Under the pieces are notes generated by a model, which saw only the letters and a list, made by a program, of their open reading frames with translations, was not told the origin of the DNA and made no database searches. The translations under genes and the position numbers were made by a program. 64,000 bases of DNA from a virus (taxonomy: Duplodnaviria; Caudoviricetes). Where the stretch lies: positions 17,755 to 81,754 of IMG/VR virus record IMGVR_UViG_3300045391_001467. The stretch is one strand, 5' to 3'. Positions within the stretch are counted from its first letter, which is position 1. Every line of letters starts with the position of its first letter. Shown one piece after another: positions 542 to 37,557 of this stretch.

Positions 542-617
542 GCCGATTTAGCTCAGAAGGTAGAGCAACTCTTTTGTAATGAGAAGGTCGTGGGTTCAAT
601 TCCTTCAATCGGCACCA
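542..617 (+). tRNA. tRNA-Thr(UGU)
   Basis: Acceptor GCCGATT/AATCGGC, D-arm GCTC/GAGC, anticodon TGT at 575-577, TTCAATT T-loop, encoded CCA at 615-617; 76 nt. Confidence 0.9.
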
Positions 618-2376: not shown

Positions 2377-3885
2377 ATGCCTTCAGAGCAAACGCCAGAA
2401 GAGGGCGTTAATGCTGCTTTGCAGCCTGATAAGGGGGCAGTAATCCCCCGTCTCAAATTATCCGAAACTGGATATCTTAATCTAAAAACACGTAACGGTA
2501 GAATACTAGAGGATGCAAATTTTGCATTCCGAATGCCGAATTTATGCAAAGTGGTGGATGAGATGAAAATCTCCCCTCCCGTTGCTATTGGCTTGAATGC
2601 TTTGCGAATGCTCATAAATAGAGCTGAAGTTTACGTTGAACCATTTGATGATACACCAAAACATAAGCAACGTGCTAAATTTCTTGAGTCTTGCCTGAAT
2701 GACATGGAGTCTTCATGGCAAACCACTATGAAGAGTTTCTTCCCTTTTTTGGAATATGGGCATCACGTTAGTGAAAAAGTATTCCGAAGGCGTCTTAAGT
2801 CTAATGGGAGCAAGTATAACGATGGCCTTGTAGGTGTCAAGGCTTTAAAACCACGCCCACAACATTCCATAGAAAAATGGAATTTTAGTGAAGATGGTAG
2901 GACTCTTGTAGGTCTTTCACAGAATATTACATCATTAGAAAACTCTTATAGGTTCAAGGCACTAACAAATGAAGATGGCCTTATAGAGATTCCTCGGGAG
3001 AAATTTCTTCTATTCCGTGCAGATGCAGTAGGGGATAATCCAGAGGGCAACAGCATATTAAAGGCAGCTTATTTAGCGTTTAAGCAGCTTTCACTGCTTA
3101 CTGACCACATGCTAATAGGGGTGGCTAAAGATACTCAAGGGCTGCCCTTAGTACAGATTCCACCACAGTATATGTCAGAAACAGCTAGTGATTATGAAAA
3201 AGATGTATATAGCGCTTGCAAAACTGTGGTGGACAATTTAGCTGCTGGGACACAGAGGGGCATCGTATTTCCATTGGCATATGATCCTGAATCTAAAGCA
3301 GAGATGTTTAAAGTATCTCTTTTAGAGTCTAAAGGAGGTAAAGCTTACGATGTTCTTGCGATTATAAAAGTCTTACAAGCAAACATCTTGAGTGTGTTGT
3401 CTTGCGATGCTGTAACTATGAGCGTTGATCAAGCCGGTTCCTTGAGTCTACAAGATGGTGACACTAACCTACTAGCTTTATCTGTTGCTTATCGTTTAGG
3501 AGAGATTGCAGATACTCTTAATACAGATTTGGTTAGGCAATTATGGGAGCTTAACGGCTTTGATACTGCAGAAATGCCTAAGATAAAGTTTAAAGATGTA
3601 TCAGGTGTTAGCCTAGAAGAGTTTTCTAAGTTTATTCAGCGTGTGTTCAGCGTTGGTGGCATGGAAGTTGACAGAGTTGTTTTGAATAAGATTCGTGAGG
3701 TTGGTGGGTTTGATCTTAAACCAGATGATGAGCCGATTGACTATGAAAATCTATCAACAACTTTAGCTGGGAAAGCAACTTCAGCAGGGGAAGGTATGGA
3801 GGTAGGGACAGTCGGGGATGGTACTTCTAAAACTGCTGTAGGGAAAAAGGATAACTCGGCTGCTAACAATGAAAATAAAGCGTAA
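2377..3885 (+). CDS. portal protein
   Basis: 502 aa, follows terL; DUF935/gp29-like portal features (GNPEGNSIL, clip region). Confidence 0.85.
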   Translation: MPSEQTPEEGVNAALQPDKGAVIPRLKLSETGYLNLKTRNGRILEDANFAFRMPNLCKVVDEMKISPPVAIGLNALRMLINRAEVYVEPFDDTPKHKQRAKFLESCLNDMESSWQTTMKSFFPFLEYGHHVSEKVFRRRLKSNGSKYNDGLVGVKALKPRPQHSIEKWNFSEDGRTLVGLSQNITSLENSYRFKALTNEDGLIEIPREKFLLFRADAVGDNPEGNSILKAAYLAFKQLSLLTDHMLIGVAKDTQGLPLVQIPPQYMSETASDYEKDVYSACKTVVDNLAAGTQRGIVFPLAYDPESKAEMFKVSLLESKGGKAYDVLAIIKVLQANILSVLSCDAVTMSVDQAGSLSLQDGDTNLLALSVAYRLGEIADTLNTDLVRQLWELNGFDTAEMPKIKFKDVSGVSLEEFSKFIQRVFSVGGMEVDRVVLNKIREVGGFDLKPDDEPIDYENLSTTLAGKATSAGEGMEVGTVGDGTSKTAVGKKDNSAANNENKA

Positions 3886-6006: not shown

Positions 6007-7041
6007 ATGCTAGTTCGTAGCCCAAGTAACAATTTTGATGTCGTTGATCTGACATCAGCAGTACGTAACATCCCTATTCAATATGGTACTTTCAATCAAC
6101 TTGGAATCTTCCGTGAGGAACCTGTTGCTAGTGATACAGTACTATTCGAGGAATCCACCCAAGACGGTGCATTGATTGTTGACCGTGTGCGTGGTGAGAG
6201 AAACACAGTATCTAAAGATGGCACTCGCAAACTGCACTCATTTGTAGTTCCTCACTTTCCATTGGATGATTATATTTCTCCAAAGGATTTGCAAAATAAA
6301 TCCGCATACGATAATTTCGACGAAGCAGAAATGCTTGAAAAAGTACGGATGCGCAAGCTTACCCGTTTGCGTCAAAATCATGACTGGACGCTCAACAAGG
6401 CACGTGCCCAAGCGCTCTTTTCTGCTACCGCATATGCTCCTAACGGGACAGTAAGCCAAAACTGGAATACTGAGTTTGATGTTACTCGTACTGCAGTGGA
6501 CTTTGATCTTGGTGATGCTACTACAGAAGTTTTGGAAAAGATTGAAGCTGTAATTCAAGCAGTCCATGACGGCATGGGTGGAAACGGTGTTTTCACAGGT
6601 ATTATTATCCCATGTGATACTACATTTTTCAATTCATTGATTAAACATGCTTCTGTGCAGAATGCATACAAGTATGCACAAGCAAACAAAGTAGGTCAAG
6701 ACCCAATGCGGGGTCGCCTCACTGCTGATGGCTCTCCTATGCAGAATGGTCGAGAATTCAGTTTTGGTGGCGTTACTTTCCGTGAAGTGCGCGATAGCTA
6801 CAATGGCTCTAGTATTGTTACGTCTAATGAAGGTGTTGCAGTGCCAATGGGTTCTGATATGTTTGTAACCTATTTTGCACCAGCAGAGCGTTTTGGATTG
6901 GTGAATACTCTTGGCGAGCAAATGTATGCTTTTGAGCAAGCTGATCCAAAGGCCACTAAGATTGAGATTGAAACTGAATCCAATCATATTTCGGCTCTTC
7001 TGCGTCCGCAGGCTGTTGTTCGTTGCCATACAAGCACATAA
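6007..7041 (+). CDS. major capsid protein (lambda gpE-like, HK97 fold)
   Basis: 344 aa; PHFPLDD, YFAPA and ESNHISALLRPQAVV motifs typical of the gpE family. Confidence 0.92.
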   Translation: MLVRSPSNNFDVVDLTSAVRNIPIQYGTFNQLGIFREEPVASDTVLFEESTQDGALIVDRVRGERNTVSKDGTRKLHSFVVPHFPLDDYISPKDLQNKSAYDNFDEAEMLEKVRMRKLTRLRQNHDWTLNKARAQALFSATAYAPNGTVSQNWNTEFDVTRTAVDFDLGDATTEVLEKIEAVIQAVHDGMGGNGVFTGIIIPCDTTFFNSLIKHASVQNAYKYAQANKVGQDPMRGRLTADGSPMQNGREFSFGGVTFREVRDSYNGSSIVTSNEGVAVPMGSDMFVTYFAPAERFGLVNTLGEQMYAFEQADPKATKIEIETESNHISALLRPQAVVRCHTST

Positions 7042-25919: not shown

Positions 25920-26867
25920 TTATCCTTCGCAAGAGGCACAAGTTTCAGCCTCAGACCAATCCACAAGAGCTTTTCTTTCAATCTCTTTAGCATTGTTCAC
26001 TTCCCCTTCTTTCTCCCCCCTGAAGTAGTAAAGGGTATAGACGTTTGGACTCTTCAAGAATTTCAAGTGGACACTATTCACATACTTACGGCTGCTCCCG
26101 AATGGGAAAAATAAATTCAAACTTTGAGACTGTCCACGTTCGCCCATAATTGCTCCACGATGTTCTGCTAGCTCCACTACCCAGTGCTGGTCAATCTCCA
26201 TTGCAACTTTAAACACATTTTTTTCATGCTCACTCAGGAAATCAAGGTGTGTGACACGGCCTTCATTGTCTTGAATTGACTTCCAAACTTCTTCTGTATC
26301 CTTACCACACTTTTCAAGAACTTTAGCAAGGTGCATGTTCTTCACTGTAAAGTTCCCCGCTTTTGTACTCTTCAAGAATATGTTTCTAAAGTAAGGTTCA
26401 ATTGTAGGAGAGGTATTCAGCAAATCAGAGTTATTGGCATTAGGAGCTAGAGCAAACAAGCGAGAATTTCGCAGCCCTGTTCCTTTCATGTCCTCTGGCT
26501 CACCTCGCTCCATTGCAAGTTGCTTACTTCCTTCCACACCTTTCTCCACAATATGCTTAAAGATAATGTTGGTGTGTTGCACACTGCTGTTAAAACCGCC
26601 ACCTTCAAATGGAATGCCTTTGCTCTGCAAATACCCATGAAAGCCCATTGTTCCGATCCCTACTGCCCTCTCTCTTCTTGCACTATATTTAGCACGTTGA
26701 ATTGTGTCAGGTGCATTGTCAATAAAACTTTGCAACACATTATCCAAGAATCGAACAAGGTCTTCTACAATTGTAGAGTCTTTCCATTCATCAAATTTCT
26801 CCAAATTCAAACTGCTAAGACAACAGACGAAGCTTCTATTTTCGTCTGTTGGCAACAGAATTTCACT
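25920..26867 (-). CDS. nrdA: RNR alpha subunit, exon 2
   Basis: Begins AGT GAA ATT (S-E-I); VCCLSSLN, LAPNAN, TLYYFR, C-terminal CASCEG. Confidence 0.92.
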   Translation of the reverse strand, partial: SEILLPTDENRSFVCCLSSLNLEKFDEWKDSTIVEDLVRFLDNVLQSFIDNAPDTIQRAKYSARRERAVGIGTMGFHGYLQSKGIPFEGGGFNSSVQHTNIIFKHIVEKGVEGSKQLAMERGEPEDMKGTGLRNSRLFALAPNANNSDLLNTSPTIEPYFRNIFLKSTKAGNFTVKNMHLAKVLEKCGKDTEEVWKSIQDNEGRVTHLDFLSEHEKNVFKVAMEIDQHWVVELAEHRGAIMGERGQSQSLNLFFPFGSSRKYVNSVHLKFLKSPNVYTLYYFRGEKEGEVNNAKEIERKALVDWSEAETCASCEG

Positions 26868-27148
26868 CGTTATGTTCAGGTAAGGTCGTTAGTCTTACCC
26901 CGCTTTATTCAAGCTGCTATACATCCCTGTATAGACCAGACTATATCACCATCCTGCAACAGGATGCTCACCGCTTTGAGCCACTTGGCCCTACTCCCTT
27001 CCGGGATAGTCGTTGCTCTTTCCTGCACGTTCTTCCACGCTGCTTGGTTAGTGGTTGTATCAGGCTTAGATCAGGATTACGTGTTCTACGCTTCCCCTGA
27101 GTTCAATGAGTTTGCAATATACATTACTGTATAAGGGTGCTGTTATCA
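26868..27148 (-). mobile_element. group I intron (IA2-like), 281 nt, no ORF
   Basis: P1 GTGU|UG-AUAA-CAGCAC with U-G at splice site; terminal G; GACUA / GAUAUAGUC P7; splicing restores N-L-C-S-E. Confidence 0.93.
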
Positions 27149-28036
27149 ACACAAATTACTGCCACGAATCTTCAATCCTAAATCTTTCTGTGCTTGAGGA
27201 AGATTCCTATTGGCAGCGTCAATTTTCAGTAGGTAAGGCTCACCAGTCAGCGCACGAGTTTCCAGAATCTCTTCCCATACCTTACGTGCACACAGTTTCT
27301 CAAATACTCTACCAGAATGAGGACATTTCAGTTCATATTCTTTGTCTTGCAATACAGCGTCAATGAAATTATCAGTGATATTTACTGCACAGTGAAATTG
27401 CTTACGATTATCACTGCGACGCTTACTGTCACCTCCCGGTTTCCTGAATCTAATATGTTCAATGATGTCGGGATGATCTACATCTAAATAAGCAGCTAGT
27501 GCTGCACGTTTTGATTTTCCTTGCTGAAAATAAGCGATAGCACTGTCCATCATCTTCATGTAAGGAATCGGGCCTACAGCTTTACCTCCAATCCCTCTGA
27601 TATCCATGTGTGCTGCAGTTCCACCCCCAAGCATACACAACTCAGCCAGTTCTTGAATTACACTAACTTGCCCTTTGGCTGTATCAGGGACATTAAAAGC
27701 AAAACAGTTGATTGGTTGGCCGTGTATCTTCTCTTCCGCTACAAATTCATGTGTACGCCAATCAGTGGGATTTTCCTTCTTTACCCAATGCCCTTGTTGA
27801 CTATTAGACAGCACCCGCCCCGCATACATGAACCAACCTTTGTATGCATAGTCATAAATACGTTGTGCAAGAGCATAATCCCCGTAACAAAATGCTACAG
27901 CAGGGCGGGATAACGCTTGTGAGATAGTTTCATCTTCTCTCTTATAAAATCCATCTAATAGTGTCTTTGAAAACTCTGTAATATACTCAGGGTCTTCTTT
28001 ATTAATTAGAATTCCTTGATACTCTACTTTAGTCAT
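27149..28036 (-). CDS. nrdA: RNR alpha subunit, exon 1 (spliced product 611 aa)
   Basis: PINCF, GGGTA, AAYLDVDHPDI, TGEPY, ends GSNLC. Confidence 0.92.
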
Positions 28037-33439: not shown

Positions 33440-33759
33440 CTCACTTCCTTAATTCCAGCCATCCTGATAGCTTCCTGACAGATAGGACAAGGTTTTGCAT
33501 TAGCAGGATTTCCCTCTCTATCAAACCTGCATACAAACATGCTATGAGCCTTATCAAGTCTTTTGCAGCGAATGAGAGCAGAAATCTCAGCGTGTAAGAA
33601 ATGCCTATGTTCCATCCCCATTTGCTTTGCCAGTCGTGCTTGCACAGGATGGGATTTCACATAAGAATTTTTCCCAACACTGAGAATATTTCCTTTCTTG
33701 TCGTATAGAAAAGCCGTTATGTTGTATTTCTTTTTCATTTTAAAAATCAGTAACTCCAA
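33430..33759 (-). CDS. zinc-dependent cytidine/dCMP deaminase-like protein
   Basis: HAE ... PCPIC. Confidence 0.85.
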   Translation of the reverse strand: MELLIFKMKKKYNITAFLYDKKGNILSVGKNSYVKSHPVQARLAKQMGMEHRHFLHAEISALIRCKRLDKAHSMFVCRFDREGNPANAKPCPICQEAIRMAGIKEVRWT

Positions 33760-34514
33760 CCTCTCAAGAAATCAATATCACTTTCATTCAAGCCATCTAG
33801 ATTCACATTGATTTTCTCTAACAGGTCATAAGCATTCCCCGGCATTTCTTCTGCTTGCTTATCTGCAATAAAATCTGATTCTTTGAATAATTCAATAGCA
33901 GCATCCATGGAGAATGGTCTATCTGTTTCAATCAAAGCTTTTTCTCCATATTGCCCACCGATAGCAGTAGCTAAATCCTCCCAGCTACTCAATGGAACTT
34001 TTTGCAAGCTTAGACCAATGCGCAATAGATCACCTTTGCCAATTGTATAACCTCGCTGCTGGTACTTAAGAACACGCAACAAAGAACCATAAGGATATCT
34101 AGTTCCACTATGAAATCGCAAGAAGCGTTGTGAGGCATGTTTCAGAAAATCTTCATGGAATACAAACTCTTCTTTATCAATGTCATATGCAGCCATTGCT
34201 ACGGTGAAATCAAAGACATCAAAAATGTCTTGGCCTGTTTCAAAGAAATCAAAATGCATTAACTGAATAACGTGGTTATCCTTAACAAAAGTTACGGCAC
34301 GATCAGAAGCAGCTACGCACCACAAGCCTTCATCATATGCTTGTCCTACGGCTAGAATAAAGTCCTTCTCAGTTTTGAAGTAAATATCTACGTCATTGAC
34401 TGGGGTATTTGTAAATACACTTGTCAAAGCTCCACCTGCAATAAATGCACCAGATGGTAAGAAGTGATATGCAGCTTCCTTAAGTGCTTTTAATTCTTTA
34501 TTATGTTGTGTCAT
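33747..34514 (-). CDS. nucleotidyltransferase-fold protein 1
   Basis: FIAGGA ... NDVDIY; FDFTV; start at MTQHNK. Confidence 0.75.
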   Translation of the reverse strand: MTQHNKELKALKEAAYHFLPSGAFIAGGALTSVFTNTPVNDVDIYFKTEKDFILAVGQAYDEGLWCVAASDRAVTFVKDNHVIQLMHFDFFETGQDIFDVFDFTVAMAAYDIDKEEFVFHEDFLKHASQRFLRFHSGTRYPYGSLLRVLKYQQRGYTIGKGDLLRIGLSLQKVPLSSWEDLATAIGGQYGEKALIETDRPFSMDAAIELFKESDFIADKQAEEMPGNAYDLLEKINVNLDGLNESDIDFLRGWSY

Positions 34515-34525
34515 TAACTTTCCTG

Positions 34526-34560
34526 AACAAAAAGCCTGCAAAGCCTTTTGAGCTTGCAAG
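34526..34560 (-). terminator. intrinsic terminator after ssb-like gene
   Basis: CTTGCAAGCT-CAAAA-GGCTTTGCAGG then CTTTTTGTT on - strand. Confidence 0.55.
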
Positions 34561-35690: not shown

Positions 35691-36331
35691 CTACATACAA
35701 ATTTTAATACTCCATCCGATAAGCAACGCTAGTGGGGGCTTAATGATATTAACAGCGTGAAATTTTATATTGTAATCCTTCACATTTTCTACACCTACAA
35801 AGTCGGGCTGTTTCGTAATGTAATTAGCCACTAGAGTTAATCCCATAGCAGCGTATATTGTCAGTGCAGGTAAATTAAAAGTAGAGACAATAAACCAGCT
35901 CCACAATATTGTGAGCACATAGGCACTCAGAAGATACTCTGCACAGCTTAGAGCAAAGCTACCTATAAATTTAAGCATTGTGTTCCTTATTTAATACTGT
36001 AAGTTAAAGTATTGTTGTGATGAAGAATAGTGAAGTAATTAAAGCCTAATCTGCACAGCAATTCTTTAACCACCTCTCGCATACCACTATTTAACATTGG
36101 GCTATCACCAGTGTCGTGAACGAGATACACAGGTTTACCCGGATTATGCATAGCCGAAGATATATGTTCAAGTGCTTTTGCGGTAGTTTTACCGCAACAC
36201 CTGTCTTCTCTAACAATCATCTCTAACACATCAGTAGAAACTGCCTTCAGAAAATCACCGTATGTTTCTTTAGCTATGTTATTCACACTCTCTAATAGGC
36301 CTTTGCGACGACATTCTATGCAATCTTTCAT
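35691..36331 (-). CDS. membrane protein (35691-35978) and hypothetical protein (35987-36331)
   Basis: ORF track; first has three hydrophobic segments. Confidence 0.55.
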
Positions 36332-36513
36332 GGCTATCCTTATTTAATTTCAAAATCATATAAAGCACCTTCCAGACCATCCGCCAACTCCTTTAACATA
36401 CTGATAATGTACTCCTTATGGCTGGTATAGTTCTCATCATTAAAGTATTCATCTGGAATTTCATTAATTGTTACGTGGAAATTAAGCTCCATAGGATATT
36501 CCTCTTTAAAATT

Positions 36514-36591
36514 TAGAGCGAGCGGGGAGAATCAAACTCCCATTGATCCGTTACGGTGCTACAAGGTAGAAGCTTGTTCCGATACGCTCGC
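36514..36591 (-). ncRNA. tRNA-like RNA lacking D-arm, anticodon-like UCU (Arg)
   Basis: GCGAGCG/CGCTCGC acceptor, ACAAG-CTTCTAC-CTTGT arm, GGGAG-TTTGATT-CTCCC T-arm, 7 nt in place of D-arm, ends T-CTA. Confidence 0.75.
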
Positions 36592-36598
36592 ATTAATC

Positions 36599-36704
36599 TG
36601 GTGTTGGTGGCTGGCACTGGTCTCCAGCTTGGTGCCATGTCGATTTCAGAGGCTCGTGGCACCTTGACGCTCTCTAGCGAATCAGCCTTCGCAATTCCCC
36701 CAAC
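36599..36704 (-). ncRNA. 106 nt CCA-terminated tRNA-like RNA
   Basis: GTTGGGG/CACCAAC acceptor-like stem plus A-CCA; hairpins GCGAA/TTCGC, GGTGCCA/TGGCACC, GCTGG/CCAGC. Confidence 0.7.
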
Positions 36705-36712
36705 GAAACATC

Positions 36713-36741
36713 ATTATATACTAATTAATCCCTACTGTCAA
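36713..36741 (-). promoter_or_regulatory. sigma70-type promoter of the RNA pair
   Basis: TTGACA-17-TATAAT ending 8 nt upstream of the first RNA. Confidence 0.9.
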
Positions 36742-37177
36742 TAAATTCCCTGCCCATATTGCGTGGCATTATACCAACTAAAATACGTACCTTTGTTATA
36801 GCTATCCCAAAACATTTTTGTACGAGTGTTCTTTACATAATCATTTCCAGCCTTGCGGCGATGCATATAGTCTTCATAAGACTCATCTTCAATCCGTTTA
36901 GGCTGAAGAAATGTACGGTTTTCTTGCAAGAATGTTTTATTTGCTTGCATCATAGCATCATCTCTAAAATATATCCTTCCAAATTTTTAATTTGAGAATA
37001 TGTGAAAATATTCCCTACACTCTCTCCATTAGCTAGAATATCTATGATTTCCACATTTGGAGGCTCTGCTGGAGAGCTAGATGTAGCGGGATAAAATGGT
37101 GTAAAATAAAATAACACCTCTGCTTTTATTTCATCATCTGTTATTGGGTGGTTTACTGTTATTGATATTTGTCTCAC
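36738..37177 (-). CDS. two hypothetical genes (36738-36953, 36950-37177)
   Basis: Overlapping stop/start. Confidence 0.55.
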
Positions 37178-37347
37178 AAATATTTATACTCCACACTGAG
37201 TAATACATCCTCCAGTACTCTTCCATTAGTTCCTTACAATATTTCATATAAAGTATTGGCATATCTTGAATAATTAGCCATTGAGCGTAAGATGAGCACA
37301 TTACGTTTTATCCTAGATGTTTCTAGTTTTAATAGCACACTTCATTT

Positions 37348-37557
37348 TCAATCCCCTTTGTTCATCCATCTTCTGATAACATACTGTCTAGATAAACTGA
37401 TCAATGTAAATATAACTCCAACCAATAACCCATCATGTACGGTTAGTTTATACCCCATGCTAGGAAATACAATCATATTAGCTATAAAGTTGATAGAAAA
37501 ACCTATAGCAATATTAATACATGCTTCTAAAAAGCTTCGCTGCTTAGACTGAGCCAT
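37348..37557 (-). CDS. small two-TM membrane protein (QSK.RSFLEA..N family)
   Basis: MAQSKQRSFLEACINIAIGF ... ISLSRQYVIRRW. Confidence 0.7.
   Translation of the reverse strand: MAQSKQRSFLEACINIAIGFSINFIANMIVFPSMGYKLTVHDGLLVGVIFTLISLSRQYVIRRWMNKGD

What the first reader, a model, noticed from the sequence alone, without database searches (positions are those of the whole stretch)
36514..36591. tRNA-like RNA with no D-arm and a UCU anticodon loop
It has a perfect 7 bp acceptor, a perfect 5 bp stem with a 7 nt loop CU-UCU-AC, a perfect 5 bp T-stem (loop TTTGATT) and a 19 nt variable region with a CCG-TAA-CGG hairpin. Only TATCGGA stands where the D-arm belongs. Perfect stems argue against decay. 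D-armless tRNAs are known mainly from animal mitochondria. It may read AGA, common in this AT-rich phage, or act as a decoy for anticodon nucleases or synthetases. The 3' end is T-CTA rather than CCA.
Basis: partly seen in the sequence, partly recalled or inferred. Interest (0 to 1): 0.8.

Follow-up and report, generated by a model that had tools for sequence, protein, structure and literature searches.

The report
Rewired phage arginine tRNA gene
The "tRNA without a D-arm" is a real, conserved phage gene for an arginine tRNA (anticodon UCU) whose D-arm is not missing: it sits after the anticodon arm instead of before it, a wiring that standard tRNA finders miss and that I could not find described in the literature.

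Summary
The 78-nt element is real and lies on the minus strand (36591->36514). A covariance model built without this window scores it 89.3 bits (E 1.7e-24).

It belongs to a phage-specific family: more than 55 distinct sequences in IMG/VR contigs, plus Felix O1, PAK_P2, Atu_ph04, DC31, SOVA965 and Streptomyces phage Mildred21.

Comparison changes the reading. The proposed CCG-UAA-CGG hairpin is not conserved. Instead, the CGG of "UAUCGGA" pairs with that CCG. The two triplets covary (CGG:CCG, CAC:GUG, CUC:GAG, CAG:CUG, CCG:CGG; CGU:GCG ends in a U.G wobble), forming a D-stem that encloses the anticodon arm.

A D-loop-like UAA..GGA..CRAU follows, next to an otherwise normal T arm. Moving that block in silico back to the canonical position makes ARAGORN, 52 members as ordinary tRNA-Arg(UCU). 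In native order it calls none.

Anticodons in the scaffold are only UCU or UCG, both arginine. Canonical tRNA-Arg(UCU) is usually absent from the same tRNA arrays.

AGA is this phage's commonest Arg codon, and the 81.7-kb genome has no other Arg tRNA.

This copy deviates in four ways: U at T-loop position 56, U73, no encoded CCA, and its own consensus promoter.

Function is inferred, not shown.

This scan has already met the family on other genomes. My literature searches found no description of it.

The parts
36514..36591 (-). Whole rewired tRNA-Arg(UCU) gene, 78 nt including the U73-CUA tail
   Evidence: R2 (built without the window) gives 89.3 bits, E 1.7e-24. All 20 of 20 model pairs form.
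36585..36591 (-). Acceptor stem, 5' strand GCGAGCG (pairs with 36518-36524)
   Evidence: Seven pairs. Six of the seven columns show compensatory changes in the family.
36582..36584 (-). U8, A9 and U10. U8 and A9 are invariant. U10 is the partner-less '22' position.
   Evidence: UA in 52 of 52 members; third base U in 41 and C in 11.
36579..36581 (-). CGG: D-stem strand that runs straight into the anticodon stem (equivalent to canonical 23-25)
   Evidence: Pairs with 36554-36556. 100% paired, with compensatory changes in 2 of 3 pairs.
36578..36578 (-). A, equivalent to position 26, opposite A 36560 (equivalent to 44)
   Evidence: Both invariant in A1. The mapping is an inference.
36561..36577 (-). 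Anticodon arm ACAAG-CUUCUAC-CUUGU; anticodon UCU at 36570-36568
   Evidence: Five pairs, three of them covarying. Loop is CUUCUAA in 49 of 52 members and YUUCUAC/AUUCUAC in 3, including this copy.
36557..36560 (-). AGCA: A (44-equivalent) plus a 3-nt bulge (45-47-equivalent)
   Evidence: A-G-Y/A-A is conserved. The mapping is an inference.
36554..36556 (-). CCG: D-stem strand equivalent to canonical 10-12
Evidence: Covaries with 36579-36581.
36542..36553 (-). D-loop-like segment UAACGGAUCAAU. Proposed equivalents: U13; A14 (36552); A15 (36551); G18 G19 (36549-36548); A20 (36547); A21 (36543); U48 (36542).
   Evidence: UAA, GGA and C-R-A-U occur in all 52 members. The T4 tRNA-Arg D-arm reads GUGU-AAUGGAUA. 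Transposing this block restores a cloverleaf for ARAGORN in 52 of 52.
36525..36541 (-). T arm GGGAG-UUUGAUU-CUCCC
   Evidence: Five pairs, three covarying. The loop has U where the family has C56; this is the only such case among 52.
36518..36524 (-). Acceptor stem, 3' strand CGCUCGC
36514..36517 (-). Discriminator U73 and CUA in place of CCA
   Evidence: The 3' end is CCA in 43 of 52 members and CUA in 4. CCA-less members mostly sit in phages whose other tRNA genes also lack CCA.
36713..36741 (-). Consensus sigma-70-type promoter TTGACA-17-TATAAT, likely driving the upstream RNA, this gene and the downstream ORFs
   Evidence: 12 of 12 hexamer matches. No terminator-like site in 35900-37300.
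36599..36704 (-). Co-transcribed 106-nt RNA ending ACCA, 7 nt upstream of the gene; nature unknown
   Evidence: Sequence. Fold z-score -1.06. No homologue in 77 loci or in IMG/VR by pattern.

Best explanation
This is a gene for an arginine tRNA (anticodon UCU, reading AGA and probably AGG) of a phage-specific class. In this class the D-arm block, canonical nucleotides 10-21, lies between variable-loop positions 47 and 48 instead of between 9 and 22.

Proposed fold:
- The acceptor and T arms are standard (7/5).
- After U8-A9 comes the D-stem strand that runs directly into the anticodon stem.
- After the anticodon arm and a short bulge comes the other D-stem strand.
- That strand is followed by a D-loop (A14, A15, G18 G19, A20, A21) and U48, and then the T stem.
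- The three new junctions (9->22, 47->10, 21->48) join nucleotides that are neighbours in the canonical L-shape. The molecule can therefore keep the U8-A14, A15-U48 and G18/G19-T-loop contacts.

Proposed pathway in this phage:
- Transcription starts from the consensus promoter at 36741-36713, giving one precursor that also carries a 106-nt CCA-ended RNA and the downstream mRNA.
- RNase P cuts the 5' end.
- Because the 3' end reads U-CUA, trimming and the host CCA-adding enzyme would be needed.
- Host ArgRS would then charge it through C35, U36 and the A20 equivalent.
- It would supply AGA decoding, the phage's commonest Arg codon.

What is shown: the secondary structure, family membership, the arginine-only anticodons and the complementary distribution with canonical tRNA-Arg(UCU). 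What is inferred: the 3D mapping, processing, charging and decoding.
For: - Family size: 51 distinct sequences among 71 loci at the first count, rising to 54 when five genome contigs MAG hits were added. Further members were reached by BLAST or covariance model rather than by my patterns: Felix O1 at 58 bits, PAK_P2 at 78, Atu_ph04 at 92, Mildred21 at 63.
- Structure: 99.4% of cells paired; covariation score 0.81 against 0.21 shuffled and at most 0.15 for slid controls.
- Long-range helix: always paired, with six distinct states. Five are fully Watson-Crick (CGG:CCG, CAC:GUG, CUC:GAG, CAG:CUG, CCG:CGG). The sixth, CGU:GCG in PAK_P2, closes with a U.G wobble.
- Conserved core bases: U8, A9, UAA, GGA and C-R-A-U are in all 52 members.
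- Similarity to a canonical tRNA-Arg: the T4 tRNA-Arg D-arm is GUGU-AAUGGAUA, close to the family's GUG-U-AAUGGA.
- Transposition test: moving alignment columns 36-51 to just after column 9 makes ARAGORN of 52 as tRNA-Arg(tct). Native order gives 0 of 52. Shifted, shuffled or reversed controls give 0-25.
- Anticodons: only UCU or UCG, both arginine. UCG occurs in the subfamily that includes Streptomyces phage Mildred21.
- Arginine identity elements A20, C35 and U/G36 (PMC9976931) all have conserved equivalents.
- Context: usually inside phage tRNA arrays.
- Canonical Arg(tct) is found in only 7 of 75 loci. Three of those seven (L038, L055/L060) hold a truncated rewired copy directly followed by a canonical one.
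- CCA status follows the phage's other tRNA genes: 15% against 76%.
- In this window, AGA is 30% and AGG 19% of Arg codons.
- The complete 81,754-bp genome has one other tRNA and no Arg tRNA.
- A 12/12 promoter lies 122 nt upstream.
Against: - There is no expression, processing, aminoacylation or decoding data for any member.
- This copy deviates from the family. It has U instead of C56 in the T loop (unique among 52) and U73 rather than the A/G73 of arginine identity.
- It has CUA instead of CCA, although the phage's one canonical tRNA and the upstream RNA both encode CCA.
- The family structure is 4.9 kcal/mol above the predicted MFE for this copy (family median 1.6, maximum 6.9).
- ARAGORN is lenient: 25 of 52 are still called when the moved block is shuffled.
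- Several 'invariant' columns were fixed by my search patterns.
- The 3D mapping rests on textbook tertiary contacts, not on a model or a structure.
Confidence: 0.7

Rival explanations
1. The element is a tRNA mimic that is not used in translation. It would act as a decoy or sponge for a host factor that binds tRNA-Arg(UCU), such as an anticodon nuclease or a modification enzyme, or it would serve some other tRNA-shaped role.
For: The core is non-canonical. A decoy would also conserve the anticodon loop and the overall shape. Phage tRNAs are proposed to counter tRNA-targeting defences (PMC10264068, listed). This copy lacks CCA and has U73.
Against: - CCA is encoded in 43 of 52 members, with 7/5 acceptor/T geometry and an A20 equivalent.
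- The anticodon switches only within arginine, UCU to UCG.
- Members sit in arrays that otherwise lack Arg(UCU), and truncated copies have been replaced by canonical tRNA-Arg(UCU).
- CCA status tracks the neighbouring genuine tRNAs.
- I know of no nuclease specific to tRNA-Arg(UCU) and tested none.
Confidence: 0.13
2. The family is functional, but this particular copy is a decaying or inactive gene.
For: It has a unique U56. It also has U73, a CUA tail in a phage whose other tRNA encodes CCA, and a fairly high energy gap to the MFE.
Against: - All 20 pairs are intact and every family-invariant base is present.
- Its leave-one-out score of 89.3 bits is higher than those of PAK_P2 (78, model R1), Mildred21 (63) and Felix O1 (58, model R1).
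- It has a dedicated 12/12 promoter.
- The genome has no alternative Arg tRNA, and AGA is the top Arg codon.
- G19-U56 can still wobble-pair.
- CUA tails recur in L033, L035 and L043.
Confidence: 0.12
3. One reading: a truly D-armless tRNA, like mitochondrial tRNA-Ser, with a short variable-arm hairpin CCG-UAA-CGG.
For: The hairpin can be drawn in this copy. ARAGORN in mitochondrial mode of 52 members as tct tRNAs.
Against: - The hairpin is 80% paired with zero compensatory changes and is broken in 13-15 sequences per pair.
- Its CCG instead covaries perfectly with the CGG upstream.
- The GG and the canonical T loop are conserved, which would not be expected without a D-loop/T-loop elbow.
Confidence: 0.03

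Closest known systems
Canonical bacterial and phage tRNA-Arg(UCU), e.g. phage T4 tRNA-Arg (L076:2174-2248) and E. coli argU (from memory)
   Same: Same anticodon loop CUUCUAA. Same 7-bp acceptor and 5-bp T stem with a UUCGAAU-type loop. Similar D-loop wording, AAUGGAU with A20. Same U8, and CCA in most members. After the block is transposed in silico, it is called as an ordinary tRNA-Arg.
   Different: The order of parts differs: the D-stem strands flank the anticodon arm and the D-loop runs into the T stem. The result is a three-way rather than four-way junction, and there is no separate variable loop. Rfam RF00005 and ARAGORN do not detect it.
Metazoan mitochondrial D-armless tRNAs, e.g. mt-tRNA-Ser(AGY) and nematode mt-tRNA-Ser(UCU) (PMC4013460; PMC7609411)
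   Same: There is no hairpin between the acceptor and anticodon stems. Some of these tRNAs also have a UCU anticodon.
   Different: The mitochondrial tRNAs lack a D-stem and the D-loop/T-loop elbow and are flexible. The phage family keeps a covarying D-stem, GG, A14/A15/A21/U48 equivalents and a canonical T loop. It is charged, by inference, with Arg rather than Ser, and it is used with bacterial rather than specialised mitochondrial machinery.
Circularly permuted tRNA genes of Cyanidioschyzon merolae (mentioned in PMC4090602; details from my own knowledge)
   Same: The gene order of tRNA segments differs from the canonical order.
   Different: In the permuted genes the 3' half precedes the 5' half, and processing restores a normal cloverleaf. 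Here the acceptor strands are at the termini and CCA is at the 3' end. The rearrangement is internal and would persist in the mature RNA.
Viral tRNA-like structures such as the TYMV TLS (from my own knowledge)
   Same: An L-shape with a D-loop/T-loop-like elbow is reached through a non-cloverleaf connectivity.
   Different: The TLSs are 3' ends of RNA genomes. They build the acceptor arm with a pseudoknot and are not decoders. This is a free-standing gene in tRNA arrays with an intact anticodon loop.
CCA-less phage tRNA genes, e.g. several T4 tRNAs matured by RNase BN and the host CCA-adding enzyme (from my own knowledge)
   Same: This copy ends U-CUA and would need 3' trimming and CCA addition.
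   Different: That precedent concerns canonical cloverleaf tRNAs.

Membership tests
   7 of 7 pairs; UA present.
   CGG (36581-36579) pairs with CCG (36556-36554). The helix is 100% paired in the family, with compensatory changes.
   The loop is CUUCUAC. Position 38 is C, as in 3 of 52 members.
   UAACGGAUCAAU is one of the commonest variants.
   The loop is UUUGAUU. It is the only member of 52 with U56. T54-A58 and a possible G19-U56 wobble remain.
   89.3 bits, E 1.7e-24. With R1, canonical tRNAs of Felix O1 and T4 score at most 34 bits.
Canonical tRNA (Rfam RF00005) | Cloverleaf with a D hairpin between the acceptor and anticodon stems | tested here: not met
   No RF00005 match even at E<=10 in 35800-37400. 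ARAGORN of 52 in native order.
Canonical tRNA (Rfam RF00005) | Aminoacylation and use on the ribosome | not testable with these tools
   Needs tRNA-seq, acid gels, and ArgRS and reporter assays.
Bacterial arginine identity set (A20, C35, U/G36, A/G73; PMC9976931) | A20, C35 and U36 | tested here: met
   C35 and U36 are present. The A directly after GG (36547) is invariant in the family. Its equivalence to A20 is inferred.
Bacterial arginine identity set (A20, C35, U/G36, A/G73; PMC9976931) | Discriminator A73 or G73 | tested here: not met
   This copy has U73. In the family, A occurs 27 times, G 18 and U 7.
Mitochondrial-type D-armless tRNA | No D-stem and no conserved D-loop/T-loop elbow | tested here: not met
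   A covarying D-stem and an invariant GG with a canonical T loop are present.
Circularly permuted tRNA gene | 3' half upstream of the 5' half, with acceptor ends internal to the gene | tested here: not met
   The acceptor strands are at the two ends, and CCA follows in 43 of 52 members.

The most novel reading that the evidence does not exclude
A natural topological isomer of tRNA. It would be a working arginine tRNA in which nucleotides 10-21 have been transposed into the variable loop. It would be accepted by RNase P, ArgRS, EF-Tu and the ribosome despite having a non-cloverleaf secondary structure. It would be maintained across many unrelated phages, possibly because the altered gene or RNA escapes something that targets canonical tRNA-Arg(UCU), such as a host tRNA nuclease or the homing endonucleases common in phage tRNA arrays.
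Probability: 0.6. Interest if true: 0.9.

Novelty: new variant of a known kind. Interest (0 to 1): 0.8.

Why it matters
The cloverleaf is treated as universal outside animal mitochondria. A widespread bacterial-virus tRNA that reaches the L-shape through a different strand order would matter in several ways.
- It would show that the translation machinery reads the 3D shape, not the connectivity.
- It would give a natural scaffold for tRNA engineering and orthogonality studies.
- It would explain 'missing' AGA tRNAs in phages such as Felix O1 (PMC3185647).
- It would expose a systematic blind spot in tRNAscan/ARAGORN/Rfam annotation of phage genomes. Members are unannotated, or mislabelled as in Mildred21, where the gene is called tRNA-Phe.

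The hypothesis is directly testable with phages that are already in culture.

Tried and rejected
- Standard detectors (ARAGORN, Rfam gathering threshold, Rfam at E<=10) do not call the element.
- ARAGORN in mitochondrial mode on native sequences gives inconsistent calls, 13 of 52 as tct.
- Looking for other anticodons in the scaffold: a scan with the anticodon arm left free found only UCU.
- A later scan was mis-registered by one base through my own error. It therefore recovered only the Mildred21-like subfamily plus one chance hit (L090). That subfamily has UCU or UCG.
- MFE folding of this copy prefers a different long hairpin. I judged this uninformative, since 13 of 52 members share less than half of their pairs with the MFE.
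- The upstream 106-nt RNA has no homologue in the held loci or by an IMG/VR pattern, and its fold is not significant. It remains unexplained.
- Close relatives of this phage: a search with the neighbouring dNMP kinase gave one 42%-identical locus that lacks the element.
- PAK_P3 has no member.
- HNH endonuclease adjacency: homologues of seven HNH genes lie within 100 nt of the element in 12 of 86 loci, but not in this window. It is recurrent, not defining.
- The nearby 270-aa ORF with a weak 'nucleotidyltransferase' PHROG hit has no Pfam, NCBIfam or PDB match, so there is no evidence for a phage CCA-adding enzyme.
- Identity of the permuted family to canonical tRNA-Arg genes is only slightly higher than for native order, about 0.60 against 0.56. 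It says little about origin.
- Seven literature searches found no description of this architecture.

Full report
**1. The observation**

Read on the minus strand, 36591->36514 is GCGAGCG-UAUCGGA-ACAAG-CUUCUAC-CUUGU-AGCACCGUAACGGAUCAAU-GGGAG-UUUGAUU-CUCCC-CGCUCGC-U-CUA. ARAGORN finds only one tRNA in the window (542-617). Rfam finds that tRNA and a group I intron. Even at E<=10, Rfam reports no tRNA match in 35800-37400.

The element lies in a 245-nt non-coding gap between minus-strand ORFs. A perfect TTGACA-17-TATAAT promoter sits at 36741-36713. A 106-nt G+C-rich stretch ending ACCA (36704-36599) stops 7 nt before the element. The ribosome-binding site and ATG of a 50-aa ORF follow 22 nt after it.

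**2. It is a member of a large phage family**

- A sensitive BLAST against isolated phages matched only the element itself, in Limnohabitans phage DC31 and Stenotrophomonas phage SOVA965. Both have the same architecture, compensatory stem changes, a UCU anticodon and an encoded CCA.
- Pattern scans of IMG/VR gave 23, 66 and 25 loci.
- A scan of 185,579 species genomes gave only five hits, all on MAG contigs. The family is essentially viral.
- Pooled, there are 54 distinct sequences. Two of them (L038, L055) are truncated.
- Independently of my patterns, BLAST and covariance models find members in Felix O1 (record 25951-26032, 58 bits, unannotated), PAK_P2 (78 bits), Agrobacterium phage Atu_ph04 (92 bits) and Streptomyces phage Mildred21 (63 bits).
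- A model built from 53 relatives without the window scores the window element at 89.3 bits, E 1.7e-24, and this is the only hit in the 64 kb.

**3. The structure is not 'D-armless'**

The triplet after UA-Y covaries with the triplet just before UAA. The fully Watson-Crick states are CGG:CCG, CAC:GUG, CUC:GAG and CAG:CUG and CCG:CGG in the Mildred21 subfamily. PAK_P2 has CGU:GCG, which closes with a U.G wobble.

On the 52-sequence alignment A1 this helix is paired in 100% of cells. Double changes occur at two of its three pairs: G-C to A-U nine times and to U-A three times, and G-C to C-G nine times. The whole structure is 99.4% paired. Its covariation score is 0.81, against 0.21 for shuffles and at most 0.15 for slid controls (same result on A2).

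The anticodon arm is therefore enclosed by a second, 3-bp helix, across an A.A apposition and a 3-nt bulge (G-Y/A-A).

**4. The missing D-arm is there, in a different order**

After the 3' strand of the long-range helix, every member has U-A-A, then 1-3 nt, then G-G-A, then 1-3 nt, then C-R-A-U, and then the T stem. U8 and A9 are invariant.

This reads like a D-stem strand plus a D-loop:
- N-N-G-U corresponds to 10-13.
- A-A corresponds to A14 and A15.
- GG corresponds to G18 and G19.
- The next A corresponds to A20.
- The penultimate A corresponds to A21.
- The final U corresponds to U48, the partner of A15.

Phage T4's canonical tRNA-Arg has the D-arm GUGU-AAUGGAUA-GCAU. That is nearly the same wording as family members with GUG-U-AAUGGA.

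As a test, I moved alignment columns 36-51 to just after column 9. ARAGORN then called 52 of 52 members as ordinary tRNA-Arg(tct), against 0 of 52 in native order. Shifted, reversed or shuffled versions gave 0 to 25 of 52. ARAGORN is lenient, so this is supporting evidence rather than decisive evidence.

In canonical numbering, block 10-21 sits between 47 and 48. The new junctions (9->22, 47->10, 21->48) join residues that are neighbours in the textbook L-shape: the 9-[12-23] and 45-[10-25] triples, and the 8-14-21 layer stacked on 15-48. That statement comes from established tRNA structure, summarised in PMC7609411. The mapping itself is my inference.

**5. Evidence that it works as tRNA-Arg**

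1. Anticodons in the scaffold are only UCU or UCG, both arginine. A scan with the anticodon arm left free found only UCU. UCG appears in the subfamily that includes a phage of high-G+C Streptomyces. In Mildred21 the gene is annotated tRNA-Phe(gaa), which reads the loop one base out of register.
2. The bacterial arginine identity set is A20, C35, U/G36 and A/G73 (PMC9976931). The A after GG and C35 are invariant. Position 36 is U or G. The discriminator is A in 27 members, G in 18 and U in 7.
3. Members usually lie inside phage tRNA arrays. ARAGORN finds a canonical Arg(tct) in only 7 of 75 loci. Three of those seven (L038, L055/L060) hold a truncated rewired copy followed directly by a canonical tRNA-Arg(UCU). 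That looks like allelic replacement.
4. Whether CCA is encoded follows the phage's other tRNA genes. About 15% of canonical tRNAs end in CCA where the rewired gene lacks it, against 76% where it has it.
5. The Felix O1 genome paper expected an AGA tRNA and did not find one (PMC3185647). The family member lies unannotated between tRNA-Ile and HNH ORF45.

**6. This copy**

The phage is a complete 81,754-bp genome with terminal repeats. It is distantly related to Felix O1/Pakpunavirus-type myoviruses (terminase 38% identical). It has one Rfam-detectable tRNA and no Arg tRNA. AGA is its commonest Arg codon (30%) and AGG is 19%.

In its favour, the copy keeps all 20 pairs and all family-invariant bases, and it has its own consensus promoter.

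It deviates in the following ways:
- U56 in the T loop, unique among 52 members.
- U73.
- C38, which it shares with SOVA965, Atu_ph04 and L069.
- CUA instead of CCA, although the phage's other tRNA and the upstream RNA encode CCA.

CUA or similar tails recur in L033, L043 and L035. I rate the copy as probably functional, with about 12% for a decaying gene.

**7. Why the rewiring?**

This is unknown. I see three possibilities, none of them tested:
- escape of the RNA from host factors that target canonical tRNA-Arg;
- escape of the gene from homing endonucleases;
- a neutral rearrangement that spread with mobile tRNA-array segments.

On the second possibility, HNH genes abut the element in Felix O1, PAK_P2, DC31, SOVA965 and Mildred21, and in 12 of 86 loci by tblastn. 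No HNH gene is adjacent in this window.

**8. Novelty and earlier notes**

Seven full-text searches, a 2020 review of non-canonical tRNAs (PMC7609411) and the paper on novel cloverleaf structures (PMC5389517) do not describe this architecture.

Earlier notes of this scan report the same 'rewired arginine tRNA' on Felix O1-type and other phages. I reached this reading, before seeing those notes, and then checked the Felix O1 claim myself. This window therefore adds a divergent, promoter-driven, CCA-less member in a phage with almost no other tRNAs. It is not a first sighting.

**9. Limits**

- Several conserved columns (GTA, AAC, CTTCTAA, TAG, TAA) were fixed by my patterns.
- Counts are of sequences, not independent events.
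- One scan was mis-registered by my own error.
- No 3D model and no experimental data exist.

Noticed in passing
window 36599-36704 (-): A 106-nt G+C-rich RNA candidate lies directly after the consensus promoter. GUUGGGG pairs with CACCAAC (one mismatch), followed by A-CCA. It contains a 7+3-bp arm with a 10-nt loop holding CUCUGAA, no T-loop motif, and the alternative pairings UGGCACC/GGUGCCA/GUGCCA. No homologue was found and its fold z-score is -1.06. It is presumably co-transcribed with the rewired tRNA.
   Followed up: partly
window 542-617 (+): This is the phage's only canonical tRNA. ARAGORN calls it Tyr(GUA), but it has a short variable loop, whereas bacterial tRNA-Tyr is class II. Its anticodon stem is irregular. 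In standard numbering the anticodon would be UGU (Thr), flanked by A.A and U.U mismatches. Its isotype is uncertain.
   Followed up: no
window 26917-27158 (-): Group I intron (Rfam RF00028, 66.6 bits).
   Followed up: no
L038:3201-3374; L055:1860-1993 (identical in L060): A 5' fragment of the rewired tRNA-Arg gene is directly followed by a canonical tRNA-Arg(UCU). It looks like replacement of one allele type by the other at the same site.
   Followed up: partly
L082:595-673 (Streptomyces phage Mildred21, record 91367-91445): A family member is annotated as tRNA-Phe(gaa). In the scaffold's register the anticodon is UCG (Arg). Related IMG/VR loci (L084-L092) have UCU or UCG.
   Followed up: partly
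L025 about 6730-6760 and L007 about 3210-3240: Just downstream of the rewired tRNA-Arg there are T-arm-like hairpins (for example CTAGG-TTTGATT-CCTAG) that ARAGORN does not call. Further non-canonical tRNA-like genes may be present in these arrays.
   Followed up: no
L077:4004-4396; L078:1287-1652; L001:1222-1506; L002:955-1491; L082:159-593: HNH endonuclease genes lie immediately next to the rewired tRNA-Arg gene, within 0-33 nt or overlapping it, in five isolated phages and in 12 of 86 loci overall. This is not the case in this window.
   Followed up: partly
window 33747-34559 (-): A 270-aa ORF about 2 kb downstream has strong hits only to PHROGs of unknown function. It also has a weak hit to a 'nucleotidyltransferase' PHROG (E 4.5e-5). 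It has no Pfam, NCBIfam or PDB sequence match.
   Followed up: partly
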